Shown here: positions 12,748-62,810 of the stretch, one piece after another
How the letters are laid out: every line of letters starts with the position of its first letter
Numbering within the stretch: the stretch's first letter is position 1
DNA from: a virus
Direction: 5' to 3' (one strand)
IMG/VR virus record: IMGVR_UViG_3300008255_000099
Span: 119,412 to 183,411 of that record
DNA length: 64,000 nt
Notes under the pieces: generated by a model
What the model was told of the DNA's origin: nothing
The model's input: only the letters and a program-made list of their open reading frames with translations
The model's database searches: none
Position numbers and translations under genes: made by a program

Positions 12748-12763
12748 CTGAAAGGAAATATTA

Positions 12764-34632: not shown

Positions 34633-36375
34633 TTATTGAGTCATCAACCCATCAACAATTTCTTCTTCCCCGCTTTTTTCTGGCGCATCATTGAAGTCAA
34701 GATCGTCCCCAATACTACGACCTTTGTCTTCGTCCTCGTCGTCTCTTCTCGTCTCGTTAGAGCCAGAAGTAGCGTATCTGGCTCTTTTCTTTGCCCACTC
34801 ACGCAGAGTTTCAATGTCTTCTTTCATGGTTTTAGACAAAGGAATTGTTGCATTCAAAGCTACCATGATATCATCTGTGTTAAATTCTCTTTCTTCCGAA
34901 AATGCTTTAAACATACCTTCGATAATCGCCTGTTCAATTTCAGCCCCGGTATGCCCCAGGGAAGATTCTGCAAGAGCAGCAATATCATAGACTTTTGGAT
35001 CCCTTTTTCGCTTTTGAATATGGATATCAAAAATAGACATTCTCTCTTCTTTGTTCGGCAAATCAACGAAGAAGATTTCGTCGAATCTACCTTTTCTCAA
35101 TAATTCCGGCGGCAGGCCAGAGATGTTGTTTGCCGTAGCAACAACAAAGACTGGTTGAGTCTTTTCGTTCATCCACGTCAAAAACGACCCGAAGACACGA
35201 GCGGCCGTGCCGGCGTCGGAGCGATCTGACGATTTTGTGCCCGCCATGCCTTTTTCAATTTCATCAATCCACAAAACACATGGGGCAACAGCTTCAACAA
35301 TTCGCTGCACCTCACGCATATTTGCTTCTGATTGACCAACAATCCCACCGAAAACACGCCCAACATCAAACCGCAGCAACGGCATTTGATAGAGAGCGCT
35401 GGCGGCTTTTGCCGTCAAGCTCTTACCACAACCCTGAATCCCCACGAGAAGGACCCCCTTGGGGTTGGGCAACCCATATTCCCTTGCCCGATCAGAGAAG
35501 GCTTGTTTTCTTAACGTCAACCAATCCTTCATTTCGTCCAAGCCGCCAATTTGTTCGACGCCACCTTCCATTTTAACAAATTCGACCAACCCAGATTTCC
35601 TAATTTGCTCTTCTTTAGCTGCAATAATCTTTTCAACTGACAAGCGATTATTGCGGACTATTTGATAGGCCAACACTGCTTTAAATTCACATTCTGTAAG
35701 TCCCAAAGATCCATTAAGAATTGTTTCTTTTTCAACAGGATCAATTTCATCTTGGATATCTTTATTCTCAAGCTTACCTTGTTTCTTACGATTTTTTACA
35801 GATTCTAACAAATTATCAATAATATTCGACAACAAATTTTTATCTGGCAACGGGAAATCAATAATTTGTACAACTTTATTCAGATCCGTCGGAATCTTTT
35901 GATCTGAAGAAACAATAAATAAGCATTTTCTTTGCAAAGAATTCGCAAAGTTTTTGATTCTCCTGATAATTGCGATAGCGCCAGGATCTTCATAGTTCCC
36001 CTGACCGCTTGAACCCCAAAACTTGTGGAAATCGTTCATAACGAAAATTCCACCTTCTTGCTCCTGGGAATATTGAATTGAATCTATAAACTCAATGGCA
36101 GAAATCGGATCGACATAATCAGAAGGGTCTGTAATTTTGTTTGAGGATTTCGGATATTCTTGGTACAATCCATTAGCACAATCCCAAAAAAACAACTCTG
36201 TTTTTCTTGATCTTGCAATTTCAATCATTGCCTCTTTCACACGAGATTCTTCCCAAGAAATAATCATTGAAACTGGACGCCGAGCCTTAACAGTTGAAAC
36301 AATACATTGATATGCTTCCAACTCCTGTTCGGATTTGAGCCCATCAAACAGTTCTTGTTCGGTCTTTTCGGACAT
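34633..36375 (-). CDS. ycf46: Ycf46-like AAA+ ATPase (degenerate N-terminal AAA plus active C-terminal AAA)
   Basis: N-domain ISWEESRV..FFWD..IFVMNDFHKF; QIGGLDEMKDWL; PKGVLLVGIQGCGKSLTAK; LWIDEIEKG; TANNISGLPPELLRKGRFDEIFFVDLP; ATG 36375 preferred (GAGGTGG RBS) over GTG 36387. Confidence 0.9.
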   Translation of the reverse strand: MSEKTEQELFDGLKSEQELEAYQCIVSTVKARRPVSMIISWEESRVKEAMIEIARSRKTELFFWDCANGLYQEYPKSSNKITDPSDYVDPISAIEFIDSIQYSQEQEGGIFVMNDFHKFWGSSGQGNYEDPGAIAIIRRIKNFANSLQRKCLFIVSSDQKIPTDLNKVVQIIDFPLPDKNLLSNIIDNLLESVKNRKKQGKLENKDIQDEIDPVEKETILNGSLGLTECEFKAVLAYQIVRNNRLSVEKIIAAKEEQIRKSGLVEFVKMEGGVEQIGGLDEMKDWLTLRKQAFSDRAREYGLPNPKGVLLVGIQGCGKSLTAKAASALYQMPLLRFDVGRVFGGIVGQSEANMREVQRIVEAVAPCVLWIDEIEKGMAGTKSSDRSDAGTAARVFGSFLTWMNEKTQPVFVVATANNISGLPPELLRKGRFDEIFFVDLPNKEERMSIFDIHIQKRKRDPKVYDIAALAESSLGHTGAEIEQAIIEGMFKAFSEEREFNTDDIMVALNATIPLSKTMKEDIETLREWAKKRARYATSGSNETRRDDEDEDKGRSIGDDLDFNDAPEKSGEEEIVDGLMTQ

Positions 36376-36459
36376 CTTGTTTGCCACCTCTTACTTGGGA
36401 TACCGCCGGGGGCCGGTTCGCCGGCACCACCTCTATATAGTACACCAAAGCCAAACACC

Positions 36460-47360: not shown

Positions 47361-47436
47361 GTTTGTCCTCTTCCTTCTTTTTTAAATCACGCAAATGATT
47401 TAAACCAAAATTTCGTCCAATCCAAATCTTACCAGA

Positions 47437-47465
47437 ATCGTAACACAGAATCCCGGCGGCGTCAA
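47437..47465 (-). promoter_or_regulatory. sigma70-type promoter for the Rnl1-like ligase
   Basis: TTGACG-17 nt-TACGAT on minus strand. Confidence 0.75.
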
Positions 47466-47514
47466 GTAGATACCATTTTGGAAAAATAAAAATTGGACCA
47501 AACCATGGACCAAA

Positions 47515-47559
47515 AAAAATGGTTTTGTTTAACTTTTTAAGTTAAACAAAACCATTTTT
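47515..47559 (-). terminator. 21-bp perfect hairpin, terminator of the small membrane gene
   Basis: AAAAATGGTTTTGTTTAACTT-TTT-AAGTTAAACAAAACCATTTTT; T-run follows on minus strand. Confidence 0.8.
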
Positions 47560-47575
47560 GATCAATTTTTTGTGT

Positions 47576-47728
47576 TTAACGGACCCAATGTCCATGACTA
47601 CCAATAAGTTTGGAAACAATGACCACGAGAGCAACAACAAGTAGGATATGAATCAACCCACCGCCTACACCTGTCCCCAAACCTAGACCCCAAAAGATAA
47701 TTAACAGAATAATCAAAGTTTCTAACAT
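47576..47728 (-). CDS. lmo0937/DUF5670-like small membrane protein (50 aa, missed by ORF track)
   Basis: Manual translation MLETLIILLIIFWGLGLGTGVGGGLIHILLVVALVVIVSKLIGSHGHWVR; GGGGG RBS; matches the W.LG.....GG.IHILLV.A..V pattern. Confidence 0.8.
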   Translation of the reverse strand: MLETLIILLIIFWGLGLGTGVGGGLIHILLVVALVVIVSKLIGSHGHWVR

Positions 47729-47739
47729 CTTGCCCCCCT

Positions 47740-47769
47740 AAATACCGATAAATACCGATAAATACCGAC
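47740..47769. repeat. 10-bp tandem repeat x3
   Basis: AAATACCGAT AAATACCGAT AAATACCGAC just upstream of the RBS of the small membrane gene. Confidence 0.9.
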
Positions 47770-47900
47770 AAGTATCTATTCCTATGTGAAATGAGAATAC
47801 CTCTATTAGAACAAAAACACACTTTAACACCGATTGCTACCATAAAACAAAAACTCTCTAAAAAGGATGTTGTGAATTTTCCCGAGAATTAAAAAACATC

Positions 47901-49727: not shown

Positions 49728-49886
49728 GACCTGGAGGAATCAATAGGCAACCTCCATTTTTTAGAAGCAGAGAAACCATGTGGCATGTCGGGCATTTATA
49801 AATACCATCAAGATCTAATTCTGTCAAATCAATATGAGAATCATTAACTAAATCATCATTTGCAAAAACTAGCCATTTTTATCTCC

Positions 49887-49930
49887 AAAAAACTCACCCG
49901 CAGGATTTTCGCCCTGCGGGTGAGTTTTTT
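49887..49930. terminator. bidirectional intrinsic terminator
   Basis: AAAAAACTCACCCGCAGG / CCTGCGGGTGAGTTTTTT immediately after the TROVE stop. Confidence 0.88.
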
Positions 49931-49932
49931 CT

Positions 49933-51876: not shown

Positions 51877-52059
51877 CTTTTTTCTCCTACCTTTTTGCCA
51901 CGAGTTTCTCGGGAATTTACACCACACGTTGACCGTGGGTGTTAAGACCGTAATTATACCCCGTCACACACCCCATGAACACAAAAGAAATTTGGTTTTT
52001 TGGGATAAAAACAGAGATTGATGTATAATTAAACTATCTTTGAAAAAGAAGGAGATTCA

Positions 52060-52293
52060 ATGTCAAAAATAAAAGAGAAGATAGACGCAAACAATGAATT
52101 TTTGAGATCTGTTATTAATCTGAAAGATAATTTTTTCACAGAATTCCAAACCCTCAGCATTATAAGAATGTCGGAATCTATTTTCAAAATGCAAGAAGTT
52201 TATGAAGAAGATAAAGAAAGATGGGATGTTTATCTTAATTCTATTGATGATGTTTATGGGACAAATCTAAAAAATCAAAAAGGAGAGAAATGA
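52060..52293 (+). CDS. hypothetical protein
   Basis: 77 aa, AAGGAGA RBS, upstream TGTATAAT. Confidence 0.75.
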   Translation: MSKIKEKIDANNEFLRSVINLKDNFFTEFQTLSIIRMSESIFKMQEVYEEDKERWDVYLNSIDDVYGTNLKNQKGEK

Positions 52294-53237
52294 GTAAAAT
52301 TTCTGTATTAGGAGATTATATGATTGATGAATATCTTTTTTGTTCAACAGATAGAATCTCTCCAGAAGCTCCAGTTTTAATTGCAAAAATAAATGAAAAA
52401 GAAATTTCCCCAGGAGGAGCAGGAAATGTTGCAGCAAATATGTCTTTTCTGGGAAATGAAACACAAGCATTAGGATTAGGAGGGAAAAACGATTTCGGAG
52501 AATTTGAGATTTTATTTGAAAAATATTTTTTTGATAATGTGAATGTTTTGATCTTCCCGCATTATCAAAAAAATATAAGAAAAACTAGAGTTGTATCTGA
52601 TAATCATCATTTATTAAGAATTGATTGCGAAGAAGATATTTACAATGGTAAAGATATAATTAATTCATTAATTAGAGAAATGAAAAACTTCAATCCAGAT
52701 TTCTTAATTATCTCTGATTACGACAAAGGGATGATCTCTAAAATTGATATAGATTTTACAGCTTCTGTTTTTAAATCTATTCAAACAGAAATAATAGCTG
52801 ATATTAAACCAATTAATTTCAAAATTCTAAATCAAATAACAAAAAAATCAAAAAGAATTAACACGATTTTACCAAATGAAAAAGAAATTAGACAAAGTTT
52901 GCCAAATAAAGATTGGGATTTAGAAAGTTATGCAAAATATTGGATTGATAAAGATTTATGTGAAAACGTTGCTATTACAAGAGGTGAAAATGGGATTCTT
53001 TTTGTTACTGAAAAAGAAAAATTCTCAATAACCTCAAAAACAGAAGAAATTGCAGATGTTTGTGGCTGTGGCGACACCGTCACCTCTATCTACACCCACG
53101 CCATCTCTGAAGGAATTAATAAAAAATCAGCAATTGAAATAGCAAATGAATGTGCCGCCTTAACAGCTAAAAAATTTGGTGCCTATAAAGTTTCAAAAGA
53201 AGAATACTCAGAAATTAAAGAAAATTATTTATTTTAA
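52290..53237 (+). CDS. rfaE: heptose-7-phosphate kinase domain (RfaE/HldE domain I, PfkB family)
   Basis: VLGDYMIDEY...DRISPEAPV; PGGAGNVAAN; KTRV...LLRID; ISDYDKG; PNEKE; TRGENG; DVCGCGDTV. Confidence 0.88.
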   Translation: MSKISVLGDYMIDEYLFCSTDRISPEAPVLIAKINEKEISPGGAGNVAANMSFLGNETQALGLGGKNDFGEFEILFEKYFFDNVNVLIFPHYQKNIRKTRVVSDNHHLLRIDCEEDIYNGKDIINSLIREMKNFNPDFLIISDYDKGMISKIDIDFTASVFKSIQTEIIADIKPINFKILNQITKKSKRINTILPNEKEIRQSLPNKDWDLESYAKYWIDKDLCENVAITRGENGILFVTEKEKFSITSKTEEIADVCGCGDTVTSIYTHAISEGINKKSAIEIANECAALTAKKFGAYKVSKEEYSEIKENYLF

Positions 53238-53389
53238 ACCTTTCCAGAGCATTAGGAAAGCTAGTCACTACCAACACCATCTATTAGGGTCCAAATTTTA
53301 GGACTCGCTAGAAAATAATATTTAAGTTATGACTTCCACCTCAGCCACGACTTGCCCTTGGGAGTATAATATAAGGTGAGAGAGGACAT

Positions 53390-53686
53390 ATGGCAGAAAA
53401 GAAACAAATGATTGAACCAAAAGACAAGATTTTCATTCTAAAATGTGATAAAGATTTTACTCTTTGTGGAAAAACTCTATCAAAAGATTCTATTTTCTTG
53501 GTTTCAGCAGAAGGTTTTTCTTCCACTACAATAAAAGTAGAATTGTCAAATGGCTCTTTCTTTATTTATGGCAAGTTAAAAGAAGTTGCCAAAGATGCAA
53601 TTCTTTTCAATGGACAAGAATGGGTTTCATTATTAGGAAATAAAATTAATAATAAAAACGAAGATTCGTGGGATCTTGATATATAA
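53390..53686 (+). CDS. hypothetical protein
   Basis: 98 aa, GAGGA RBS, upstream TATAAT. Confidence 0.75.
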   Translation: MAEKKQMIEPKDKIFILKCDKDFTLCGKTLSKDSIFLVSAEGFSSTTIKVELSNGSFFIYGKLKEVAKDAILFNGQEWVSLLGNKINNKNEDSWDLDI

Positions 53687-53705
53687 TTAAATAAAAGGAG
53701 AAAAA

Positions 53706-54617
53706 ATGAACGAAGATGAAAAAAATGTTTTTTCTTTAATTACAGAAGAAACAGCCCAAGATAGATTTATTAATCTTTTAGAAAATCTTGAGAACAAACA
53801 GATAACTTTAAATTATTCAAAAGAACAAATAAAAGATAACATCCTACTTTCTGTTTCTGATGAAGATTTAAAAAAATTTAATGAATTAATAGAAGACCTT
53901 CTTTTAAAAGAAGAAAAAGCTTTTGAAGCAAACAAAAAGCTTAATGTTAAATTTGTTTCGGAAAATGAGCAAAGGATTTATAAAGAATACCAGGATCCTT
54001 TTTTAGAAGAAACTGAAATAATAATCGAAACAAACAAGAAAGTGGTTTTCAAAAAAGAATTCCCAAATTGTATCGCATATTACGATCCTTCTTTATTAGA
54101 TGAAGAAAAATATGTTCCAACACCAATGGATCTAATCATGCAAAAAGTTTTACATCGAATTGATGGACCCGCACTAGAATTCAAAGACGGTGGAGTTGAA
54201 TGGTGGGTTAATGGCGTTAGACACAATTTGAATGCGCCAGCAATTCAAAAACCAGACGGCACAGAAGAATGGTGGGTTAATGGTTATTACCACCGAGTCG
54301 GAGCGCCAGCAAGAATCAGCCCAAATGGGAATTCTGAATATTGGGTTGCTGGAATTAGACATAATCTAAAAGGGCCGGCGATAACAAACAAAAAAGACGG
54401 AGATTCCTATTATATTTATGGCAAAAAAATGTCAAAAAAAGAATTTGAACTTTATCTAGAATTACAAAAAACAGTGCAAGAGAATGTGTTTAAAACAAAA
54501 GAAGAAATGATAGAAATAATAGAAGAGTTAAAACAAAAAGAAAAAATAAATGTTGTTTTTAAGAATCAAGAACCAAAGGGAATTACACCAGTTGGAACTG
54601 TCGGAAAAACCATATAG
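53706..54617 (+). CDS. protein with HRxDGPA...WxxNG repeats (MORN-variant-like)
   Basis: LHRIDGPALE..DGGVEWWVNG / RHNLNAPAI..PDGTEEWWVNG / YHRVGAPA..NGNSEYWVAG / RHNLKGPAI. Confidence 0.8.
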   Translation: MNEDEKNVFSLITEETAQDRFINLLENLENKQITLNYSKEQIKDNILLSVSDEDLKKFNELIEDLLLKEEKAFEANKKLNVKFVSENEQRIYKEYQDPFLEETEIIIETNKKVVFKKEFPNCIAYYDPSLLDEEKYVPTPMDLIMQKVLHRIDGPALEFKDGGVEWWVNGVRHNLNAPAIQKPDGTEEWWVNGYYHRVGAPARISPNGNSEYWVAGIRHNLKGPAITNKKDGDSYYIYGKKMSKKEFELYLELQKTVQENVFKTKEEMIEIIEELKQKEKINVVFKNQEPKGITPVGTVGKTI

Positions 54618-54629
54618 AAAGAATCAAAA

Positions 54630-55715
54630 ATGTCTGAAGAAGAATTGCAGCAACAAGAAGAAGATGTTGTCGATGATTTACTTGTGGATTTTGTGGAAAT
54701 ATCTAAAATTGAACCCCACCAAGATCCAGAAGTTGAAAGACTTGAAGTTGTTCATGTCAAAGGGTGGAAAACATTAACCCAAAAAGGTCAATATCAACCA
54801 GGGGATGTCGTTCTCTACATCCCCCCCGATTCTATGATTCCAGTCGAATGGGCTCAAAAATGGGGGGTTGAAGAATATCTTCACTTTAAGAAAAATTCAA
54901 CATTTGGACGGGTTAAAGCAATCCGTCTCCGTGGCGAAATGAGTTATGGATTTGTTGTTAATCCAAAAAATCTTGTTGGGTTGAACATCAAAGATTCTAT
55001 TGGGATCAAAAAATATCAAGAACCACAAAAAAGAAGGGGATTTGCTTCTGGTGAAGCTGAAAAAGAACACTTCCTTTTCTATAAATATACTAAAATCCAA
55101 AACACCAAAAACTATCCTGACTTCTTAACCCCAGGCGAAGAAGTCGTAGCCTCTGAAAAACTACACGGGACAAACTCAAGAATTGCTTTTATTAAAACAA
55201 ATGAAAACTTTGAATTAATGATTGGAAGCAATAGAACGAGAAGGAAGTTAGGGACAGAAAGTATTTATGAAAAACCATTGGCTTTGTTCCCTCAATTAAT
55301 GGATTTGTTTGAAGATTTGCTTTATCAAAATGAAGAGTTAAATTCAATCATAGTTTTCGGTGAAATTTTTGGATCAGGAATTCAAGATTTAGAATATGGA
55401 AAAGATGAAATAACTTTCTCGGCTTTTGATATCTGTTGCGATCATGTCTATCTGGATTTTGATGATGCTAGAAATCTCTTCCAAAAACACCAAATCCCAA
55501 TGGTCCCATTGCTCTATGAAGGTCCCTTTGATCAAAAATTAATGGAAGAACTTTCATCAGGAAAAACAACCATAATGAAATCTAAGGCCCACATTCGAGA
55601 GGGAATTGTCGTTAAACCTAAAATTGAGAGAGAAGTTAAAGGATTAGGACGTGTTATCCTTAAATTTATTAACGATGATTACTTGTTAAGGAAAAAAGGG
55701 ACTGAATTCCATTAG
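54630..55715 (+). CDS. RNA ligase, DRB0094 family, with N-terminal OB-like domain
   Basis: IEPH...ERLEV..VKGW...GDVVLYIPPDS; RVKAIRLRGEMSYG; SEKLHGTN; FGEIFG; AFDI; VPLLYEGPF; REGIVVKP; ILKFINDDYL. Confidence 0.9.
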   Translation: MSEEELQQQEEDVVDDLLVDFVEISKIEPHQDPEVERLEVVHVKGWKTLTQKGQYQPGDVVLYIPPDSMIPVEWAQKWGVEEYLHFKKNSTFGRVKAIRLRGEMSYGFVVNPKNLVGLNIKDSIGIKKYQEPQKRRGFASGEAEKEHFLFYKYTKIQNTKNYPDFLTPGEEVVASEKLHGTNSRIAFIKTNENFELMIGSNRTRRKLGTESIYEKPLALFPQLMDLFEDLLYQNEELNSIIVFGEIFGSGIQDLEYGKDEITFSAFDICCDHVYLDFDDARNLFQKHQIPMVPLLYEGPFDQKLMEELSSGKTTIMKSKAHIREGIVVKPKIEREVKGLGRVILKFINDDYLLRKKGTEFH

Positions 55716-55765
55716 TCAATTCCAAAAACAATCAACACTTGTGTCAGACTAGCTAAGACCAAACC

Positions 55766-55893
55766 AAAAACAGCGGGCCGGACCTTGAAAGGTCCGGCCC
55801 GCTGCCACCATGCTGCTGCTGAGAGAGAGAGCACTCGCTATTTAATCTTTTGGCTTCCTCGGCCGCCGCCGCCGGCGACCGCTGCGCCATAGC
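55766..55893 (-). ncRNA. candidate ~128-nt structured small RNA
   Basis: Bounded by a consensus promoter and an intrinsic terminator; GC-rich stems (GCUAU/AUAGC, GGUCGCC/GGCGGCC); no RBS; the only ATG frame stops beyond the terminator. Confidence 0.6.
55771..55804 (-). terminator. intrinsic terminator
   Basis: 15-bp perfect stem CAGCGGGCCGGACCT/AGGTCCGGCCCGCTG, TTTTT follows on minus strand. Confidence 0.85.
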
Positions 55894-55897
55894 CAAC

Positions 55898-55926
55898 ACT
55901 ATAGCAAAGCCACCACCGCCTGTCAA
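55898..55926 (-). promoter_or_regulatory. near-consensus sigma70 promoter
   Basis: TTGACA-17 nt-TATAGT on minus strand. Confidence 0.85.
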
Positions 55927-56146
55927 GCAATCCGACAAAAAAGACGCAACCCCGCTCCCAGAGCGGGTTCGTGGCCGATTCCACTAAGCCGAAACAGAAT
56001 AAGAAAAAAGCCAGCCAAGGATTTTGTTCCCTCGAATCTATTCCCGCTCATGTCTGAGATTGTCAGAGGTTGAATTGGGAGGGATAGAAACTCACTTCAT
56101 TCAAATCCAATTCATAACTTTTTCCCTAAAAAAATGACGCAATTTC

Positions 56147-56182
56147 CTCCAGAACTCCAGACCTCCAAAACTCCAAAACTCC
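56147..56182. repeat. CTCC direct repeats with 8-bp period (x5)
   Basis: CTCCAGAA CTCCAGAC CTCCAAAA CTCCAAAA CTCC upstream of the Ubl promoter. Confidence 0.85.
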
Positions 56183-56206
56183 TTTCCAAAAGGATTCTTG
56201 CTCCGG

Positions 56207-56214
56207 TGTATAAT
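56207..56214 (+). promoter_or_regulatory. putative -10 box (TGTATAAT) of the Ubl operon
   Basis: TGTATAAT flanked by CCGG/CCGG, 55 nt upstream of ATG 56269. Confidence 0.65.
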
Positions 56215-56268
56215 CCCGGCATCGAAGGCGAACGGTCAAAGCCGACGCCGATCAAGGGAGTAGCTACA

Positions 56269-56499
56269 ATGAGTGAAACGATTTCGATTCGACTGATTTG
56301 CAACAATGAGGCTGGGTATGCCGACAATGTGACGGTCCCCGCCGGAACCTCAATCGGGGAACTTTTCCGTGAAAAGATGCCCGAGCACAACCCCGCCGAT
56401 TACGTGATCCGGGTGAACGCCGAGCCGGTTCAGCGAGCGCAGATCCTCTGCAACGGCGACCGTGTTACGATCAGCCCGCAGAAAGTCGCTGGGGCTTAA
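56269..56499 (+). CDS. ubiquitin-like (beta-grasp, ThiS/MoaD-like) protein, 76 aa
   Basis: MSETISIRLICNNEAGYADNVTVPAGTSIGELF...DYVIRVNAEPV..QILCNGDRVTISPQKVAGA; AAGGGAG RBS; C-terminal GA. Confidence 0.85.
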   Translation: MSETISIRLICNNEAGYADNVTVPAGTSIGELFREKMPEHNPADYVIRVNAEPVQRAQILCNGDRVTISPQKVAGA

Positions 56500-56504
56500 G
56501 ACAA

Positions 56505-56547
56505 AAGATCCGAGACTAGGGAATCAAATTCCCTAGTCTCGGATCTT
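56505..56547 (+). terminator. 20-bp perfect hairpin after Ubl (attenuator, stabiliser or processing site)
   Basis: AAGATCCGAGACTAGGGAAT-CAA-ATTCCCTAGTCTCGGATCTT; no clear U-tract. Confidence 0.7.
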
Positions 56548-56579
56548 ATGCTCTAAATTCTAGTTCGAATGAGGGCAAT

Positions 56580-57806
56580 ATGTCTCAAGAAACACTGAGG
56601 GAATTGTTTAAGTTTGCCAAACAAATAGAAACTCAATTTGTGCCCTCAAGAGGACGAATGCTACGATCAAATCTAGAAAATAATAATTTAAAGAATCAAA
56701 TTTCTAAACTTATTTTTATTCTCAATAGATTAGAAAATTGCTCTGAAAATAACATGGATCGTTCAATCAATGCTATGTTTGAATATGTCAGAAAAAATAA
56801 AATTATCGAAGATGTTCAACAAGGAGTTAATTTCTTAGCTTCTGTGAGAAACACGAGAGAAACATCTGATGATATTAGTAATCTTTCTCTAATCACAAAA
56901 GATTTGTATTATCTTAAGAGAGATTTTAATTGTGTTCGACTCTCTTTTCAGCCACTTTCGATTACCATCAGAACCGATCCCATTTTCTTGACTCATGCAA
57001 GTGTTAATCTTGGGAATCCAGTTGAGATTGGTGAGATTGACATTCAATTGTTTTTGACGGGGATCGAAGAATTTAGAATTAGAGCAAAGCCAGTTAGAGA
57101 TTCAACGAAGTTTTCATCCGAAAGATCTGGATCTGATAGATATTTCCATCCTCATATAAATATTGATGGTAGCATTTGTCTAGGAAACAATGGAGAAACA
57201 ATTAATTCAGCCATAAGACAATGTAGATTTTTAGATACATTCGAATTACTTTCCTTTTTGCTTAAAAACTATAACTCAGGAAGCCCATATCGTGTCCTGA
57301 ATTCATGGGTTATGCCAGAATGTCAATCCTGCGGAGACTCAACAAGATTAAAATGCTTTTTCACACATCAATATGTCTGTGAATCTTGTGCTATGATTGT
57401 CCTTTCTGAAAATGGTTGGCCCCAATTTGCGACACCTACATATTGGCAGCAACAACCCGCTTGCAAATGCTGTGGCCATAAATTGCAATTTGGTAGTTTA
57501 TGTCCCAGATGTGTAGAACTAAATATATATCTAATAAAAATAGCTGAAATTGAACAAGCACAAGAACGTGAAAAAGCAAAAATTGCTTCTTTTAAAATCT
57601 TATTCGAAAAATCAGAAGCAGACTTTGAACCAATTTCTGAAAGAATTTCTTCGCTTCATTTTGATCAAATTGAAGCAATCAATAGATCAAATCTGACATA
57701 TTTTAATTCAACCTACTCATATGAAGAAGCAAAAGAGATTGCAAAAAATAGCTTCAGATTTTCCTTCCCCGTAATGATAGAGCCTGAATTGGTAGGACAA
57801 ACCTAA
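56580..57806 (+). CDS. prokaryotic E2/UBC-like conjugating enzyme fused to a Cys-rich zinc-finger region
   Basis: FHPHINIDGSICLG (Cys200) E2 signature followed by YNSGSPY; then CQSC, CESC, CKCC, CPRC; helical N-terminus. Confidence 0.82.
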   Translation: MSQETLRELFKFAKQIETQFVPSRGRMLRSNLENNNLKNQISKLIFILNRLENCSENNMDRSINAMFEYVRKNKIIEDVQQGVNFLASVRNTRETSDDISNLSLITKDLYYLKRDFNCVRLSFQPLSITIRTDPIFLTHASVNLGNPVEIGEIDIQLFLTGIEEFRIRAKPVRDSTKFSSERSGSDRYFHPHINIDGSICLGNNGETINSAIRQCRFLDTFELLSFLLKNYNSGSPYRVLNSWVMPECQSCGDSTRLKCFFTHQYVCESCAMIVLSENGWPQFATPTYWQQQPACKCCGHKLQFGSLCPRCVELNIYLIKIAEIEQAQEREKAKIASFKILFEKSEADFEPISERISSLHFDQIEAINRSNLTYFNSTYSYEEAKEIAKNSFRFSFPVMIEPELVGQT

Positions 57807-57844
57807 AAATAGGTTGTTTCAAAACCATGACAACTGGAGAAAAG

Positions 57845-58918
57845 ATGATGCCAGACTCAGACAAAGAAGAGTTGTTCGGTGCCGACGGGGTTCAAAAAAC
57901 CACAACCTATACAGCCGGCAATTTTAATTCTAGTGTGAATTCACATAGAGTATTTTTCAAAGGAATTGGGTGGCTTACTGTCTATTCTAAAAGCAATAAA
58001 AACAAAACAACTGTTAATTTGAACCCGACAACAACGACAACAAAGAAATCAGAACCATTAAAAATCGTGCGAAAAAACTTAATGTTTTCTGGGTCTGCAA
58101 TGGCTAAGTTGTTGTGGTGTCGTGATAAAGGCGGCACAGAAATAGCCGGCTTCGGCATCTCGTCAAAAGAAGATCCGCTTTACATCAAAGAATTTTGCCT
58201 AGTTAAACAAGACGCCTCCGTTGCCTACGTTGAAATGGACGACGACGGCCTTGTAGAATTTATTGAAAAAATGGACGACAGAGGATTAGACCCCTGTGAA
58301 TACCTGAGAATTTGGATTCACACTCACCCCGGATCTAGCCCGTCGCCATCTGGAAAAGACGAAGAAACATTTAGAACAGAATTTTCTAACTGCAACTGGT
58401 CAGTTATGGCAATCCTTGCCAGAGGCAACCAGTTCTATGCTAGAATCAAAATGAACGAAATTAATTTCGCCGTAGATATCGAACATGAAGTTAATTGGTC
58501 TGATATGAAAAGTGAACTTCTGGATGTCACAGCTTGGGAAACAGAATTTGAAGAATGCGTTAAAACTACAAGTTATTCACATTCATATTATCAAGGAATG
58601 GGCGTGGGAAATAATAATGGTTGGGAAGACTATGATGGATTTGAAACCATGGTTTCAAATCCATCATATTCATATCGCCACTCAAACGTGAATCAGGGAC
58701 AAGGACAAACGAATGTCAGCAGAAACCAAGCCGACTATGGATATGGAAGTGCCCAACGATCCAGTGTTATTATCAGCCCGAACCAGCAGGTACAAGGAAA
58801 TAATACCGCTGGATTCGTTGACGACAATGAACCTAATGATCGTGGGAACGGGGGCAATTGGGAGACAGGTGGCGCTGCTGATGGCAGCTATGGGCCTGCC
58901 CCAAATGGTGCTGATTGA
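57845..58918 (+). CDS. JAB/MPN+ (JAMM) metalloisopeptidase
   Basis: TEIAGFG; IWIHTHPGSSPSPSGKDEETF fits HxH-x7-S-x2-D; ATG 57845 has a GGAGA RBS (alternative start 57827). Confidence 0.9.
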   Translation: MMPDSDKEELFGADGVQKTTTYTAGNFNSSVNSHRVFFKGIGWLTVYSKSNKNKTTVNLNPTTTTTKKSEPLKIVRKNLMFSGSAMAKLLWCRDKGGTEIAGFGISSKEDPLYIKEFCLVKQDASVAYVEMDDDGLVEFIEKMDDRGLDPCEYLRIWIHTHPGSSPSPSGKDEETFRTEFSNCNWSVMAILARGNQFYARIKMNEINFAVDIEHEVNWSDMKSELLDVTAWETEFEECVKTTSYSHSYYQGMGVGNNNGWEDYDGFETMVSNPSYSYRHSNVNQGQGQTNVSRNQADYGYGSAQRSSVIISPNQQVQGNNTAGFVDDNEPNDRGNGGNWETGGAADGSYGPAPNGAD

Positions 58919-59462
58919 TTTCGATAAGGTCGAAGCTGAAAACCTTGGCCCACAAGGTTTTCGGCCCGACCAAATCGGCCAATTCAAAACAGAATGCTTG
59001 CTGGAAGATTGCCAGAGAATCAACCCGGAAGCGAATTTTACCGCTGTCACAGATAAATTCCGGGCGAAATTTCTTCTGGATTTTAAACCAACAGCAATCA
59101 TTTCATGTGTCGATTCAATGAGAATTAGAGCAATGATTTGGGAAAATATCAGAATGTTGGATTGTTTGTTTATTGATACCAGAATGTCATCAGAAACTTG
59201 TGAAATTTATTCGTCAGAAGCTCCGCATAGTGGTTACTATGAAACCACCCTTTTTGAAGACGCAGAAGCATACCAAGGATCCTGCACAGCGAAAAGCACA
59301 ATCTATTGTGCCAATATCGCAGCCGGTCTGGCCGTTTCTCTGCTCTCCAAAGCAATGAGGGGCATCTCACTTGAACCAAAACTTTCATTGAACATTCTTG
59401 GCTCTGAATTAGAAGCAATTTTCATGGAACCAGAAACACAAGAAGAACGACCAGAAGAATAA
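58713..59462 (+). CDS. ThiF/MoeB/E1-like adenylyltransferase
   Basis: IVGTGAIGRQ; LIDFDKVEAENLGPQ; KTEC; ISCVDS; IDTRM; GSCTAKSTIYCANIAAG. Confidence 0.92.
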   Translation: MSAETKPTMDMEVPNDPVLLSARTSRYKEIIPLDSLTTMNLMIVGTGAIGRQVALLMAAMGLPQMVLIDFDKVEAENLGPQGFRPDQIGQFKTECLLEDCQRINPEANFTAVTDKFRAKFLLDFKPTAIISCVDSMRIRAMIWENIRMLDCLFIDTRMSSETCEIYSSEAPHSGYYETTLFEDAEAYQGSCTAKSTIYCANIAAGLAVSLLSKAMRGISLEPKLSLNILGSELEAIFMEPETQEERPEE

Positions 59463-59475
59463 ATCAAACCAAAAA

Positions 59476-59517
59476 CCAAACGGGGCAGGCCAACCACCTC
59501 TGGCCTGCCCCGTTTGG
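59476..59517. terminator. intrinsic terminator closing the Ubl operon
   Basis: 17-bp perfect stem CCAAACGGGGCAGGCCA/TGGCCTGCCCCGTTTGG between convergent genes. Confidence 0.82.
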
Positions 59518-59530
59518 CCAATTGGATCAA

Positions 59531-59902
59531 TCAATTAATCAAAGCCGCCAACAAATCTGTTGAAGTGCTAATCTTTTCATCAATTAAATCAACTAAATAA
59601 TCTTCCTCACCAAAAAAAGAACTATCTAAATGATCTATCCCACCAGTCGCAACTAAAATCAACCCCAACTCATTCTGAATAACCTCAACACTATCCAAAA
59701 TCCTCATCGCTAAAACACCCTTCTGCTTGTTATCAAAAACTTCTACAGGATCTATATTCAAATCATCATGAATATCTTTTATCTTATTGGAAATCCTTTT
59801 CAACCTCTCAGATATCTCATTCTTTATAATTCTTCTGTCTAATTCTAAAATTTCACTTAACTTGTCGATTACATTCTCTATCTCTCTCGGTGATGTTGAC
59901 AT
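59531..59902 (-). CDS. hypothetical protein
   Basis: 123 aa, AAGGAGG RBS. Confidence 0.75.
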   Translation of the reverse strand: MSTSPREIENVIDKLSEILELDRRIIKNEISERLKRISNKIKDIHDDLNIDPVEVFDNKQKGVLAMRILDSVEVIQNELGLILVATGGIDHLDSSFFGEEDYLVDLIDEKISTSTDLLAALIN

Positions 59903-60127
59903 CTCATCCTCCTTTTTTTAATTATATAAAAAACAGGAATCTTTTCAACAAGAAGAAAAAAATGTGGTTCAAACTTGCAAAAAGAATTTTGACAAAAAAA
60001 CACTCTTCGGAGATAACTGGTCAATTAACGCAATCTGGGGCATGATTTAAAATACCTCTCAACTTTATCATAAATATCTTCGACTAGCTTCACAAATTGA
60101 TTTCGAAACAGAAGATCCTGAAGAAAC

Positions 60128-60283
60128 CTAATCCTCTAAAATTTTCTTCGCAACCCTCTTCATCAAACGATCAACTTGATTGGCAATCTTTGCAAGATCT
60201 GTGTCTTTCTTCTCAACCGCCTCTTGCTCAAGTTCGTCAGCAACTTCTAACATCTTCTCTAAAATAAAACTAATTCTCTTCAT
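60128..60283 (-). CDS. small helical protein
   Basis: Likely start MKRISF at 60283 (AAGGAGA RBS); VADELEQ...IANQVDRLMKRVA. Confidence 0.65.
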   Translation of the reverse strand: MKRISFILEKMLEVADELEQEAVEKKDTDLAKIANQVDRLMKRVAKKILED

Positions 60284-62810
60284 TTTCTTCTCCTTCTTGC
60301 CCCCAAAACTGTGACCAATCATCAAATTCTGGCTCTTCCTCCGGCTCCGGGGTTGAGTATCGGCCTTGACCTAAGAATTTCTCTCTTTGCTTCGCTAATT
60401 CCTCCGGGTCTTCAAAATCTTGGTCGTAAATCTCCCATTGAGTAAACCAAGCATCAACCCCAACCAATTGCTCTCGCAAATTTTTAGGCAAACTTTCAAG
60501 CAAACTTTCAGCCTCTGGAAGAATCGACACATTCCCACGGTTCGCTTCATAAATCCCCGCAACCTTTCGACGATCTTCACCAATTGATTCCCATAATAAA
60601 TCATACATTGTGGCAGCTTCTGAAATTAATAAATTGTGGAACCTATCCCCCAACTTCATCTTTTGCCCCAAAAATTGTTCGGCCCTTTGCTTCTTTTGAA
60701 GATCCTCCGGGGAAGCATCCGACTCCGAATGAGCAGAAATAAAATTGTTTGAAAACAATCTTTTAATCTTCTCCTGCAACTCAGGTGGGAATTTATTGAA
60801 AAACTCAACCAACCTTTTGTTCTTGGCAAACAGATCATCTTGATTGTTTTCAAGATAAATTGCATTTAAAAAAATTTGATTATTGAAAATTCCCTCAAAC
60901 ATCGTTTGCAATAAAGCTTTGTAAACATCAGGTAAATTAAAATCAATCTCTCCGCACCTGAACTTCAAAGAAACATGAGCATAATCCATCGGCTCACCAG
61001 CAAGAGGAACTGAAATTTCAAAATCAAGCTCTGAATTCAAAACCTCACGCAAAGGCTCTGTCGTAGCCAAAATTAAACCAAATTTTGAACTTTTCTCTAA
61101 AAATTCATCTCTGTGATCTTTTAAATAATTAGCAAAAACACTTCGAAACTCTGCAATAAATTGCCTCCGATCAAAAACTTCTAAAACTACTTTTTTGAAC
61201 ATTCGGCAAGTTGAGAACAACAAATCACGAATCCCCTCAGTCGTGAACATATTGTAACGCCGACTGTAATAATCATCCCCAATTTCTTCCGTAAAACCAA
61301 AAGTCGCTTGACCATTTTGATAATTCTGCATCAATGGAAAATATGTTAAAAACTGATTCACAGCATCAGAAAATTCACGAATCGGCAAATTGTGGTACAT
61401 CCCCTGAGAAATGTTGGTCGAAACCATTTCCTCTTTTGAAATCTGATTCGTGTTGAAAAGATATGCCAAAAAATGAACAAACGGTGTCACAAATAAACTC
61501 CTGACCAAAGTGAAATTAGTTGCAAAATCATCCCTGTTCGAAATGATCTCAACAATCTCACCCAAATTATTCGATCGGAAAGCCTGGGTCAACTCCAAAA
61601 CTTCCTGCACAGATTCCTCTTCATGATTGGCTAATGAACGATCCCCTAACCATAACCACTCTTCTCCCTCCTCCTCAAAAGGCCCCTGATAATTTTCAAA
61701 ATTTTCCAGGCGCTCCATCCAATCTTGAAAGTCTAACTTGTCAATGTTAAGCAAATCAAGAACCACCCGATTCAAATCAAACCCAAAACGATTAAAGAAA
61801 TTTTGACCATCTCCCTCTTGCCCCTCAACTTGAAAATCAACTTGACTGTCTGCAAACGGATTCTTCGGCCTCTGACCAGCAGGTAAATAGAAATTGATCG
61901 GACGATCCTTTAACTTTTGAGCTAATTCTTTCCCAAATAACCTGTCCTGAATCGGACCAAATAACCGCTCGAAAAGTTGACCAATCCAGCCCCGCCAACC
62001 AGCCGAAGAAACCAAGGGATGTTGACTTCTTCGCTCTGGCAATACCTCTTCACCAGGATGTAAAGGAATCCTCTGAGAACCTGAAGTGCCCATCTGGATA
62101 TCCTCAATTTCCTGTGCGAACGAATCAACCCGAGAACCATTCTCACGAGCCGGATCCAACATCAGCAAAGAACCACTTTCCGCAGCTTGAACCACAAACT
62201 CCGAAACCTCATTCGCCGCCGCTTGCAACATCCTCGATTGAACCTGTGGCAAACCAACTTCATCCCGCAACATCATCCAATGCTCAAGCAAAGGCTGCAA
62301 ACTCGGAGAACCATGCTTCGCAATCTCTGTCGGACCCAAAATGTCAACGCAATTCAACAAAAACTGAACCAAACCATCAAAAGCTAATCGCATCAAAACT
62401 AACGCTGGCTGCTGATTCATCGTCAATTTCGGAATCGAACCAATCGTGAACCCATCATCTGTTTCGTCAATCCAACCATCAACAGGACCACCCCAAAAAT
62501 TGTTCTGCCCCTCAAAATATCTGAAATAACCACCATAAGCAGAACGAAAAGCAACCCGCAACTCATCCTCGGGAACTAAACCATGCTCCCGCCAACTCTC
62601 AAGCAAATCAAGCTCTGTTAACAAAAAATGTCTCTCAATCTCTTCACCAACCGCATCAACCAAAGCAACCTGATCCGTCGTCAACCCACGCCAAGCTGCT
62701 AACTTCTTAAACTGTGCAAATTTGCTTAAAAAGAAATCAGCCTGAAAATGACTCCCGGCTTTCTCAAATTCATCAGAAATTTTTAAATGTCTTGAAAAAA
62801 TTCTCATCAC
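60270..62810 (-). CDS. large hypothetical protein (possible virion internal protein)
   Basis: 846 aa acidic protein; G-rich coding strand unlike the replication region; shares motifs with 47901..49727. Confidence 0.8.
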   Translation of the reverse strand: MMRIFSRHLKISDEFEKAGSHFQADFFLSKFAQFKKLAAWRGLTTDQVALVDAVGEEIERHFLLTELDLLESWREHGLVPEDELRVAFRSAYGGYFRYFEGQNNFWGGPVDGWIDETDDGFTIGSIPKLTMNQQPALVLMRLAFDGLVQFLLNCVDILGPTEIAKHGSPSLQPLLEHWMMLRDEVGLPQVQSRMLQAAANEVSEFVVQAAESGSLLMLDPARENGSRVDSFAQEIEDIQMGTSGSQRIPLHPGEEVLPERRSQHPLVSSAGWRGWIGQLFERLFGPIQDRLFGKELAQKLKDRPINFYLPAGQRPKNPFADSQVDFQVEGQEGDGQNFFNRFGFDLNRVVLDLLNIDKLDFQDWMERLENFENYQGPFEEEGEEWLWLGDRSLANHEEESVQEVLELTQAFRSNNLGEIVEIISNRDDFATNFTLVRSLFVTPFVHFLAYLFNTNQISKEEMVSTNISQGMYHNLPIREFSDAVNQFLTYFPLMQNYQNGQATFGFTEEIGDDYYSRRYNMFTTEGIRDLLFSTCRMFKKVVLEVFDRRQFIAEFRSVFANYLKDHRDEFLEKSSKFGLILATTEPLREVLNSELDFEISVPLAGEPMDYAHVSLKFRCGEIDFNLPDVYKALLQTMFEGIFNNQIFLNAIYLENNQDDLFAKNKRLVEFFNKFPPELQEKIKRLFSNNFISAHSESDASPEDLQKKQRAEQFLGQKMKLGDRFHNLLISEAATMYDLLWESIGEDRRKVAGIYEANRGNVSILPEAESLLESLPKNLREQLVGVDAWFTQWEIYDQDFEDPEELAKQREKFLGQGRYSTPEPEEEPEFDDWSQFWGQEGEENEEN

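What the first reader, a model, noticed from the sequence alone, without database searches (positions are those of the whole stretch)
56269..59517. Complete phage-borne ubiquitin-like conjugation operon: Ubl - E2/Zn-finger - JAB - E1
Seen: four co-oriented genes between one promoter and one terminator. They encode a 76-aa beta-grasp protein ending ...KVAGA, an E2-like enzyme with HPHI.DG.ICLG (Cys200), a JAMM peptidase (HTHPGSSPSPSGKD) and a ThiF/E1 enzyme (GxGxxG, candidate thioester Cys in GSCTAK). No thiamine, molybdopterin or sulfur-relay genes are nearby. Established: E1+E2+JAB+Ubl sets mediate protein conjugation; the characterised bacterial examples (CBASS Cap2/Cap3, Bil/Bub-type systems) are host anti-phage defences. 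Inference: this large phage carries its own protein-tagging pathway. The JAB would trim the terminal Ala to expose Gly and also deconjugate; targets could be host proteins, host defence components or phage proteins. From memory, not verified, similar Ubl/JAB/ThiF sequences occur in Planctomycetota elements.
Basis: partly seen in the sequence, partly recalled or inferred. Interest (0 to 1): 0.92.

Follow-up and report, generated by a model that had tools for sequence, protein, structure and literature searches.

The report
Phage-borne ubiquitin-like protein-tagging operon
A large uncultured phage carries a complete four-gene kit (small tag, activating enzyme, carrier enzyme fused to zinc fingers, trimming peptidase) for attaching a ubiquitin-like protein to other proteins; the same kit occurs in dozens of uncultured phage contigs and hundreds of Planctomycetota loci, and I found no paper describing it.

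Summary
Four co-oriented genes at 56269-59462 encode a ThiS/MoaD-type Ubl ending in Gly-Ala, a 408-aa protein with a UBC-like core, a JAMM peptidase and a minimal ThiF/UBA5-size E1. The UBC core carries His-Pro-His followed 8 residues later by Cys200, the canonical E2 spacing, and is fused to a coiled-coil N-terminus and a Cys-rich zinc array.

The contig is viral: portal and large terminase lie on the same 183-kb contig. The locus is identical to within one base in five independent assemblies.

The cassette is not unique. Ubl-E2-JAB-E1 in this order occurs in 55 of 57 informative GTDB loci, nearly all Planctomycetota and often several per genome near integrases. It also occurs complete in 33 of 52 IMG/VR viral contigs. 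All catalytic residues are near-invariant across 75-86 relatives.

It shares the gene order of Bil operons but fails membership of Bil, Bub, CBASS and PRTRC: the E2 family is different and the E1 is minimal. An orthologue of the AAA+ ATPase that often adjoins the cassette elsewhere lies 20 kb away in this phage.

Targets and biological role are unknown. The promoter claim and the "trim Ala to expose Gly" step are not established. This scan has already reported the same family on other DNA (e1-4306001, e1-5743641).

The parts
56269..56499 (+). Ubl: 76-aa ThiS/MoaD-type beta-grasp protein ending K72-V-A-G75-A76
   Evidence: ORF and Shine-Dalgarno site. It is 38-49% identical to the small gene upstream of the E2 in most related loci. 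32 of 47 orthologues hit Pfam ThiS and 10 hit Ub-Mut7C. The ESM Atlas nearest clusters are ThiS/MoaD-like at 0.95. G75 is conserved in 65/66 and A76 in 63/66, followed by 0-12 variable residues.
56505..56547 (+). 20-bp perfect hairpin between the Ubl and E2 genes. It may act as an attenuator or mRNA-stability element that sets Ubl in excess over the enzymes; that role is inferred.
   Evidence: -44.1 kcal/mol, z -7.8. No clear U-tract follows it on the + strand.
56580..57806 (+). E2-like protein of 408 aa: helical N-terminus (1-115), UBC-like core (about 100-246), Cys-rich zinc array (248-309), helical C-terminus
   Evidence: 859 relatives at E<=1e-3. AF2 model pLDDT 79.4. Foldseek and VIA matches are to canonical E2s. 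6 of 99 relatives hit UQ_con.
57147..57179 (+). E2 active-site segment: H190-P191-H192 followed 8 residues later by C200
   Evidence: Invariant in alignment A1. Present in 72-73 of 75 loci, the remainder being gaps. The spacing equals that of HPN-Cys in canonical E2s, which I recall from memory.
57321..57506 (+). Zinc array: CxxC...C...CxxC, then CxCC...CxxC
   Evidence: C248, C251, C267 and C270 are present in 73/75. The profile resembles RING, B-box and TFIIH-p44 fingers only weakly, at E 2e-4 to 1e-2, with scattered Pfam AN1, B-box and RING hits among relatives.
57827..58918 (+). JAMM/MPN+ (JAB) peptidase with low-complexity N- and C-terminal extensions. The conserved domain spans roughly residues 86-250.
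   Evidence: E105, H165, H167, S175 and D178 are conserved in 76-78 of 79. Pfam Prok-JAB 1.8e-4, PADLOC JAB 3.1e-5, NCBIfam Cap3 2e-5. The profile matches an Rpn11-like chain at 0.003.
58713..59462 (+). Minimal E1 (ThiF/MoeB/UBA5 size, 249 aa) with an invariant Cys191. It overlaps the JAB tail by 206 nt.
   Evidence: Pfam ThiF 2e-25. The best solved relatives include UBA5, UBA7/UBA1, MccB and ThiF. G45, G47, G50, R51, D69, N77, K92, D134, R139 and R157 are near-invariant, and C191 is present in 85/86. An AAGGA Shine-Dalgarno site lies before the ATG at 58713.
59474..59519 (.). 17-20-bp hairpin between the E1 gene and the convergent 123-aa gene. It probably terminates the minus-strand gene and may work in both directions.
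   Evidence: -40.4 kcal/mol, z -8.7.
34633..36387 (-). AAA+ ATPase, a possible unlinked partner. It is an orthologue of the AAA+ gene that lies just downstream of the cassette in 11 of 80 GTDB loci and near it in 4 of 52 viral loci.
   Evidence: Best match 3.5e-91, 32% identity over 546 aa. Pfam AAA 7e-28. Clusters described. The functional link is inferred.

Best explanation
This is a phage-encoded ubiquitin-like protein-conjugation cascade. It belongs to a large family of four-gene cassettes carried by uncultured phages and by multi-copy integrated elements of Planctomycetota.

Proposed mechanism; the steps are inferred from conserved residues and have not been assayed:
1. The ThiS-like Ubl is made in excess, possibly because of the hairpin that follows its gene.
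2. The JAMM peptidase trims whatever follows the conserved Gly75-Ala76 end. In this phage that is at most one residue.
3. The homodimer-type minimal E1 adenylates the Ubl C-terminus and takes it as a thioester on Cys191. By my recollection of UBA5 this sits where UBA5 Cys250 does, in the crossover loop.
4. The Ubl passes to Cys200 of the UBC-fold E2, whose His-Pro-His loop replaces the canonical His-Pro-Asn.
5. The E2's own coiled-coil and zinc-finger array choose the targets, as a built-in E3-like or substrate-binding module.
6. The JAMM enzyme also reverses the tag.

The cassette lives on phages and mobile elements rather than in host core genomes. In many relatives it sits beside an AAA+ unfoldase whose orthologue this phage also has. 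I therefore think it most likely serves the element itself, by marking host or phage proteins for remodelling, extraction or inactivation during infection. Host defence is the less likely role.
For: - Gene set and order recur. Ubl-E2-JAB-E1 is found in 55 of 57 GTDB loci with enough upstream DNA and complete in 33 of 52 IMG/VR contigs; most of the rest show E2-JAB-E1.
- Catalytic residues are near-invariant in 75-86 relatives: E2 HPH and Cys; E1 ATP-site residues and Cys191; JAMM E, HxH, S and D; Ubl Gly75.
- The E2 models as a UBC fold. AF2 gives pLDDT 79.4. Canonical E2s fill most of the best Foldseek rows (probability up to 0.93, target TM about 0.5). VIA gives UBE2S Z 7.7, Tsg101 UEV 7.5, UbcH10 7.0 and Ubc13 6.9. 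Six of 99 relatives hit Pfam UQ_con, best 4.8e-7.
- The Ubl is a beta-grasp protein: 32 of 47 orthologues hit ThiS.
- Variable tails after the conserved Gly-Ala imply processing. Bil Ubls likewise end in a conserved Gly plus extra residues, and Bil operons have the same gene order.
- The setting is viral: portal and terminase on the contig, and an identical locus in five assemblies.
- In a quick, midpoint-rooted E1 tree the viral sequences sit deeper and are more diverse than the Planctomycetota cluster. The window lies on a long, deep and unresolved branch among viral rows.
- AAA+, DUF2997, DUF3150, integrase and Cdc6-like genes recur beside the bacterial copies. The phage's AAA+ is an orthologue at 3.5e-91.
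Against: - There is no biochemical evidence of any kind, and the host and targets are unknown.
- The window's own E2 and Ubl fail every Pfam, PADLOC and NCBIfam model.
- A core-only E2 profile found no solved E2 by sequence.
- The fold matches are middling. Foldseek E-values are 0.07-0.3, and VIA Z is under 8, tied with helical-bundle matches to the N-terminus.
- The oxyanion Asn of canonical E2s is replaced by His.
- The E1 is ThiF-sized and the Ubl ThiS-like, as in sulfur-carrier pathways.
- The alignment to solved E1s stops before Cys191, so its equivalence to the UBA5/ThiF catalytic Cys rests on my memory of those sequences.
- In this phage the AAA+ gene is 20 kb away among replication genes, and it adjoins the cassette in only 11 of 80 GTDB loci.
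- The E1 tree is a quick search with a midpoint root.
Confidence: 0.72

Rival explanations
1. The chemistry is the same but the role is defence cargo. The phage carries the cassette as a Bil-like exclusion system that tags virion or other proteins of competing phages or elements, benefiting the resident element and its host.
For: All characterised bacterial relatives of this kind (Bil, CBASS Cap2/Cap3) act in anti-phage defence, and Bil has the same gene order. The bacterial copies sit on integrated elements with integrases, where defence cargo is common. The JAB's best named matches are to Cap3 models.
Against: No PADLOC model hits the E2 or the Ubl. I found no known defence genes in the flanks I scanned. 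The cassette sits in a large phage among RNA-repair and replication genes. Viral sequences are the deeper and more diverse part of the E1 tree.
Confidence: 0.2
2. It is a sulfur-carrier pathway. The ThiS-like protein is adenylated by the ThiF-like enzyme and converted to a thiocarboxylate for making a cofactor, thio-amino acid or modified nucleoside, and the JAB only unmasks its C-terminus, as in CysO/Mec+-type systems. The E2-like protein would then be an accessory sulfur relay or scaffold.
For: The Ubl family hits Pfam ThiS and weakly resembles MoaD. The E1's best NCBIfam rows are ThiF models, though below their cut-offs. The E1 is ThiF-sized and has no UFD or separate Cys domain.
Against: A UBC-fold protein with an invariant HPH-Cys site is strictly linked to the other three genes, in 55 of 57 loci. 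No rhodanese, cysteine desulfurase, ThiG/ThiH, MoaE or similar gene appeared in the scanned flanks here or among the recurrent flank families. The conserved end is Gly-Ala rather than Gly-Gly.
Confidence: 0.06
3. It is a decaying or non-functional remnant, and the long JAB/E1 overlap and odd composition reflect gene decay.
For: The JAB and E1 ORFs overlap by 206 nt. The JAB has long low-complexity extensions absent from its orthologues. GC3 ranges from 0.24 to 0.675 across the operon.
Against: All four ORFs are intact, and every catalytic residue conserved across the family is present here. The sequence is identical to within one base in five samples. Both the Ubl and the E1 have good Shine-Dalgarno sites.
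Confidence: 0.03

Closest known systems
BilABCD (bacterial ISG15-like) operons, types I and II (Chambers et al., bioRxiv 10.1101/2023.09.26.559546; operon types 6d/6c of Iyer et al. 2006, PMC1779556)
   Same: The gene order is identical: Ubl-E2-JAB DUB-E1. The Ubl has a conserved Gly followed by extra residues that must be removed; E. aridi BilA ends Gly97-Ala98, and this Ubl ends Gly75-Ala76. The cascade is inferred to be thioester-based.
   Different: BilD is a multidomain E1 with a separate catalytic-Cys domain (Cys417), whereas this E1 has 249 aa and no such insert. BilB lacks the classical His before the Cys (CEHH type, or a His after the Cys), whereas this E2 has HPH-x7-C plus a zinc array. 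Bil operons lie in host defence islands, whereas this cassette is on phages and integrated elements. No PADLOC, Pfam or NCBIfam model for known prokaryotic E2s hits it.
UBA5-UFC1-UFM1 (eukaryotic non-canonical minimal E1 system)
   Same: UBA5 is among the best solved matches to the E1 (8e-9 for the single sequence, 4e-16 for the profile). Both are ThiF-sized, homodimer-type E1s. The candidate catalytic Cys lies in the crossover region and not in an inserted domain; this last point rests on memory of the UBA5 sequence.
   Different: There is no UFC1-type E2 and no UFM1-type Ubl. The aligned region covers only the adenylation domain.
Canonical UBC E2s, and the eukaryote-like E1/E2/small-RING/JAB operons of Caldiarchaeum and some bacteria (PMC3082918, PMC5654768; Burroughs et al. 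2011, which I could not read)
   Same: The model has a UBC-like fold. A His-Pro-x loop precedes the Cys by 8 residues. Zinc fingers of a possibly RING-like type are associated with the E2.
   Different: The oxyanion Asn is replaced by His in every member. The zinc array is fused to the E2 instead of being a separate small RING protein. The E1 lacks a UFD. The Ubl is ThiS-like, not ubiquitin-like in sequence. The window protein does not reach Pfam UQ_con.
CBASS Cap2/Cap3, Bub (BubCD) and PRTRC cassettes
   Same: All combine an E1-like adenylating enzyme, an E2-like fold and a peptidase on mobile or defence loci. The JAB's best named matches are to Cap3.
   Different: Cap2 is an E1-E2 fusion that acts on a CD-NTase. 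Bub uses a peptidase-E1 fusion without a catalytic Cys and works through oxyester intermediates. PRTRC_ThiF scores 35.6 bits against a cut-off of 144.75, and there is no ParB. Here the genes are separate and both cysteines are invariant.
ThiS-ThiF / MoaD-MoeB sulfur-carrier pairs with JAB (for example CysO-Mec+)
   Same: A ThiS-family beta-grasp protein, a ThiF-sized E1 and a JAMM trimming enzyme.
   Different: Those systems have no E2. Here an E2 with an invariant Cys is obligatorily linked to the other genes, and no sulfur-transfer genes accompany it.

Membership tests
Bil (BilABCD) type I/II | Gene order Ubl-E2-JAB-E1 | tested here: met
   compared with the paper.
Bil (BilABCD) type I/II | Multidomain E1 (BilD) with an inserted catalytic-Cys domain | tested here: not met
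   The E1 has 249 aa and aligns only to the adenylation domain of ThiF, UBA5 and UBA1. No insert is present.
Bil (BilABCD) type I/II | BilB-type E2 (Cys with a downstream His; CEHH in type II) | tested here: not met
   The motif is HPH-x7-C with the His upstream. The family aligns as a distinct group with a zinc array. No direct BilB alignment was possible, because no BilB sequence was available by reference.
Bil (BilABCD) type I/II | Anti-phage defence activity | not testable with these tools
   This needs phage challenge assays.
UBC-fold E2 superfamily | UBC fold: helix, four-strand meander, active-site loop, then helices | tested here: met
   AF2 secondary structure shows helix H102-115, strands 118-171 and helices 202-244. 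Canonical E2s fill most of the best Foldseek rows. VIA gives UBE2S Z 7.7, rmsd 3.3, 124 aligned residues. These scores are moderate, not decisive.
UBC-fold E2 superfamily | Catalytic Cys 8 residues after the third residue of the HPN loop | tested here: met
   H192 and C200 are 8 residues apart and invariant. Asn is replaced by His. The canonical spacing is recalled from memory.
UBC-fold E2 superfamily | Reaches the Pfam UQ_con (PF00179) threshold | tested here: not met
   The window protein has no hit, although 6 of 99 relatives hit at up to 4.8e-7. A core-only profile found no solved E2 by sequence.
ThiF/MoeB/E1 adenylating superfamily | Pfam ThiF above its cut-off, with ATP-site residues present | tested here: met
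   89.8 bits against a cut-off of 28.1. GxGxxG, R51, D69, K92 and D134 are near-invariant.
ThiF/MoeB/E1 adenylating superfamily | Catalytic Cys able to form an E1~Ubl thioester | tested here: inconclusive
   Cys191 is present in 85/86. HMMER alignments to solved E1s end before it, so its equivalence to UBA5 Cys250 or ThiF Cys184 rests on memory.
JAMM/MPN+ peptidases | E...HxH-x7-S-xx-D metal site | tested here: met
   E105, H165, H167, S175 and D178 are conserved in 76-78 of 79. Pfam Prok-JAB scores 21.8 bits, just under its cut-off of 25.
ThiS/MoaD beta-grasp Ubls | Beta-grasp family membership and a conserved C-terminal Gly | tested here: met
   32 of 47 orthologues hit Pfam ThiS, and Gly75 is present in 65/66. 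The window protein itself does not hit ThiS.
CBASS type II (Cap2/Cap3) | E1-E2 fusion protein and an adjacent CD-NTase | tested here: not met
   E1 and E2 are separate genes. No CD-NTase was found among the scanned neighbours. PADLOC E1-E2 models match only the E1's Rossmann segment.
Bub | [quoted passage not shown] | tested here: not met
   The genes are separate, and the Cys is invariant in both E1 and E2. Paper outline.
PRTRC cassette | NCBIfam PRTRC models above their cut-offs, plus ParB | tested here: not met
   PRTRC_ThiF scores 35.6 bits against a cut-off of 144.75, and no other PRTRC model hits.

The most novel reading that the evidence does not exclude
Phages of this group run their own two-enzyme, eukaryote-like ubiquitin system. 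A single polypeptide combines the E2 with an E3-like zinc-finger array that selects targets. The tagged host or phage proteins are then handed to the phage's Ycf46-like AAA+ unfoldase. That would be a viral counterpart of ubiquitin-Cdc48 working inside bacteria, with phages and not cells as the main reservoir of this E2 lineage.
Probability: 0.2. Interest if true: 0.9.

Novelty: new variant of a known kind. Interest (0 to 1): 0.66.

Why it matters
Complete E1-E2-DUB-Ubl cascades in prokaryotes have so far been characterised only as host anti-phage defences (Bil, CBASS) or remain uncharacterised mobile-element cassettes. This is a version whose E2 keeps the classical His-Pro-x...Cys active-site layout and is fused to a zinc-finger array. 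It uses the smallest kind of E1. It is carried by many uncultured phages and by multi-copy elements in Planctomycetota.

If active, it would show that viruses of bacteria also use ubiquitin-like tagging. It would offer a minimal E1/E2(-E3) system for mechanistic work. It would add a lineage relevant to how E2 and E3 functions arose. The recurrent neighbouring AAA+ ATPase makes a tag-and-unfold pathway directly testable.

Tried and rejected
- **E2 fold without an alignment.** A single-sequence AF2 run of the E2 gave pLDDT 35.7 and was useless.
- **E2 sequence searches.** A word-indexed search of the 5.8-billion-protein set found only the E2 itself. The E2 alone against PDB sequences gave nothing. 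tblastn of three family members against 50,697 deposited phages, and of one member against PLSDB plasmids, gave no match.
- **E2 profiles against PDB.** The full-length profile matched coiled-coil and Cys-rich proteins, not E2s. A core-only profile of 52 sequences matched nothing at E<=10. Sequence-profile proof of UBC homology was therefore not obtained.
- **Ubl searches.** The word-indexed search found only the Ubl itself. Its profile against PDB gave MoaD at only E 0.016-0.033.
- **The search for related loci.** Runs with the E2 alignments or single E2s failed or found nothing. The E1 alignment worked.
- **Rfam.** On 55500-60300 it gave only chance miRNA-like hairpin hits.
- **DUF1257 and DUF2997.** No DUF3150 lies beside the window's AAA+.
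- **Recent transfer of the Ubl gene.** I considered that its 57% GC marks a recent transfer from Planctomycetota. The best identity to any sampled Ubl is only 49%, and a GC excess of the Ubl gene is general in viral copies. A recent sampled donor is not supported.
- **Literature.** Burroughs et al. 2011 and 2012 (PMC5938088, PMC5881585) are not held, so I could not check whether they mention this cassette.

Full report
**What is there**

Window 56269-59462 holds four co-oriented + strand ORFs.
- The Ubl, 56269-56499, has 76 aa, ends KVAGA, and has an AAGGGAG Shine-Dalgarno site 8 nt upstream.
- The E2-like protein, 56580-57806, has 408 aa.
- The JAB protein, 57827-58918, has 363 aa.
- The E1, 58713-59462, has 249 aa.

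Pfam gives ThiF at 2e-25 for the E1. It gives a sub-threshold Prok-JAB hit (1.8e-4) for the third protein and nothing significant for the first two. PADLOC and NCBIfam add only JAB/Cap3-like and ThiF-like hits.

First, no sigma-70-like + strand promoter was found upstream. Second, a 20-bp perfect hairpin (56505-56547, -44.1 kcal/mol, z -7.8) separates the Ubl gene from the enzyme genes, and the hairpin after E1 has its U-tract on the other strand. Third, the JAB and E1 frames overlap by 206 nt, and the E1 ATG at 58713 is preceded by AAGGA. The overlap is real. Five assemblies from different samples match the window over the parts they cover, up to 3.4 kb, with 0-1 mismatch.

**Is it a phage?**

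Yes. The window is the last 64 kb of a single 183,411-bp contig. That contig also encodes a portal (8.7e-38) and a large terminase (1.8e-26). It carries an intein-bearing DnaE, ribonucleotide reductase, DnaB and other phage-type genes. The genome tool treats it as a virus record. A 220,797-bp contig from another sample carries the same locus with the same flanks and runs beyond the window's end, so the locus is not a chimera and the genome is larger than the contig held.

**The E2-like protein**

A full HMMER scan of 1.84 billion representatives found 859 relatives at E<=1e-3. Across 99 of them H190, P191, H192, C200, G202 and Y231 are invariant and several Cys pairs are nearly so. Six of the 99 hit Pfam UQ_con, best 4.8e-7.

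AF2 with this alignment gave pLDDT 79.4, with most of residues 110-230 above 90, and the secondary-structure order of a UBC domain. Canonical E2s fill most of the best Foldseek rows against the PDB: UbcH7, UbcH5, Ubc9, with probability up to 0.93, target TM about 0.5 and E 0.07-0.3. An independent all-against-all aligner gave UBE2S Z 7.7 (124 residues, rmsd 3.3), Tsg101 UEV 7.5, UbcH10 7.0 and Ubc13 6.9. H192 and C200 are 8 residues apart, the spacing between the Asn of HPN and the catalytic Cys in classical E2s (from memory).

I take the UBC fold as supported but not proven. The scores are middling, and sequence profiles did not reach solved E2s.

The Cys-rich stretch (248-309) resembles RING, B-box, AN1 and TFIIH-p44 fingers only weakly. 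Calling it an E3 module is inference.

**The other three proteins**

Orthologues next to E2 relatives in other contigs are 36-49% identical to the window's Ubl, JAB and E1.
- Of 47 Ubl orthologues, 32 hit Pfam ThiS and 10 hit Ub-Mut7C. The language-model atlas places the Ubl at 0.95 with ThiS/MoaD-like clusters from Planctomycetota.
- Across 66 Ubls, Gly75 (65/66) and Ala76 (63/66) are both conserved and are followed by 0-12 unconserved residues. Processing is therefore implied, but the mature end could be Gly or Ala.
- The JAMM residues are conserved in 76-78 of 79 JABs. The ATP-site residues and Cys191 are conserved in 85-86 of 86 E1s.
- UBA5 is among the closest solved E1 relatives, alongside UBA7, UBA1, MccB and ThiF. 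This is a minimal E1 without a UFD or an inserted Cys domain.

**The family and where it lives**

The best 80 are almost all Planctomycetota MAGs: Gemmataceae, Pirellulales, Phycisphaerae, Tepidisphaerales, Sedimentisphaerales and Planctomycetaceae. They often occur in several copies per genome. A few come from MAGs labelled Anaerolineales, Heimdallarchaeota and Thermoplasmata.

In 55 of the 57 loci with enough upstream DNA, all four genes occur in the order Ubl-E2-JAB-E1. Recurrent flank families are a classical AAA+ ATPase (11 loci), DUF2997 (8), DUF2958, DUF6573, DUF3150, tyrosine integrases (6) and Cdc6-like ATPases (5). This is the signature of integrated mobile elements.

IMG/VR holds 52 viral contigs (10-488 kb) with the E1. 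Thirty-three have all four genes, and most of the rest have E2-JAB-E1. Some phage contigs carry two tandem E2 paralogues. No member was found in deposited phage genomes or in PLSDB plasmids.

In a quick E1 tree the viral sequences are deep and diverse, and the Planctomycetota sequences form a shallower cluster. The window sits on a long, deep and unresolved branch among viral rows (midpoint root, quick search, so indicative only).

**Link to an AAA+ ATPase**

The window's AAA+ gene (34633-36387, minus strand) matches the cassette-adjacent AAA+ of 11 loci, best 3.5e-91 at 32% identity over 546 residues. In this phage it lies 20 kb away among replication genes. A tag-and-unfold partnership is plausible but unproven for this genome.

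**Composition**

The phage averages about 31% GC. The Ubl gene has 56.7% GC (GC3 0.675), the E2 33% (GC3 0.24), the JAB 42% and the E1 44%. The 550-bp region upstream of the Ubl is 50% GC. Ubl genes are GC-richer than their flanks in viral copies generally (+7 points on average, E2 0), but this window is the extreme case at +24. No close donor exists among the sampled sequences. This remains unexplained.

**Comparison with known systems**

The gene order and the Gly-plus-tail Ubl match Bil operons. The E1 architecture and the E2 family do not, and the features tested for Bub, CBASS Cap2/3 and PRTRC are not met. The operon types 6a-6e of Iyer et al. 2006 do not include an E2 with an upstream His-Pro-His, a fused zinc array and a minimal separate E1. 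Full-text searches found no paper describing a phage-encoded cascade of this kind. Two relevant papers were not available.

Within this scan the same family has already been reported on other DNA: e1-4306001 on a Planctomycetota element and e1-5743641 on a 168-kb phage with the AAA+ module. Other phage Ubl cassettes of different types have also been noted. My results agree with those notes and were obtained independently of them.

**Verdict**

This is a real phage-borne member of a large, apparently uncharacterised Ubl-conjugation family. The chemistry is inferred with fair confidence (0.72).

Noticed in passing
window 58713-58918: The JAB and E1 ORFs overlap by 206 nt in different frames. The overlapped part of JAB is a low-complexity Gly/Asn/Gln-rich tail that its orthologues lack. 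JAB also has an N-terminal extension of about 85 aa, and orthologues start at the equivalent of Met86. The sequence is identical in five assemblies.
   Followed up: partly
window 55716-56499: The Ubl gene (GC3 0.675) and the 550-bp region upstream of it (50% GC) are strongly GC-rich in a 31% GC phage. The upstream region holds a minus-strand unit with a TTGACA-17-TATAGT promoter (55926-55898) and a 17-bp terminator (55806-55769), which another first-stage note reads as a small RNA. Rfam has no match.
   Followed up: partly
window 642-6176, 10087-12747, 12764-15577, 23054-27535: Inteins with LAGLIDADG domains interrupt the class II ribonucleotide reductase (two intein regions), the DUF444/YeaH-like protein, the SpoVR-like protein and the DnaE polymerase. 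PrkA, DUF444 and SpoVR form a contiguous trio (7189-15577) in a phage.
   Followed up: no
window 45228-55715: A TROVE/Ro60-like protein (49933-51927), a PfkB kinase (52290-53237) and an RNA ligase (54630-55715) lie just upstream of the Ubl operon. An earlier scan report on another genome linked a Ro60-like gene to an E2-less Ubl module, part of which later fell.
   Followed up: no
window 59531-59902 (-): The convergent 123-aa gene has a weak Pfam hit (E 0.0021, below its cut-off) to the Mu Gam/Sipho_Gp157-like domain of TOTE conflict systems.
   Followed up: no
L007:127-2803; L120, L124, L130: Some phage contigs carry two tandem paralogous E2-zinc genes ahead of JAB and E1. In L007 the cassette is followed by NAD-salvage genes (NAPRTase, NAD synthase, nicotinamidase).
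   Followed up: partly
L043 (MAG labelled Heimdallarchaeota), L079 (MAG labelled Thermoplasmata): Complete cassettes occur in two MAGs labelled archaeal. In the E1 tree they group with viral contigs, so they may be viral or mis-binned DNA. L043 also has a radical-SAM-like gene, the AAA+ and DUF3150 downstream of E1.
   Followed up: partly
L001 (220,797-bp contig) versus G000: The held genome (183,411 bp) ends at the window's end. Another assembly continues at least 4 kb further, with small ORFs and then an SNF2-family helicase, so G000 is incomplete.
   Followed up: partly
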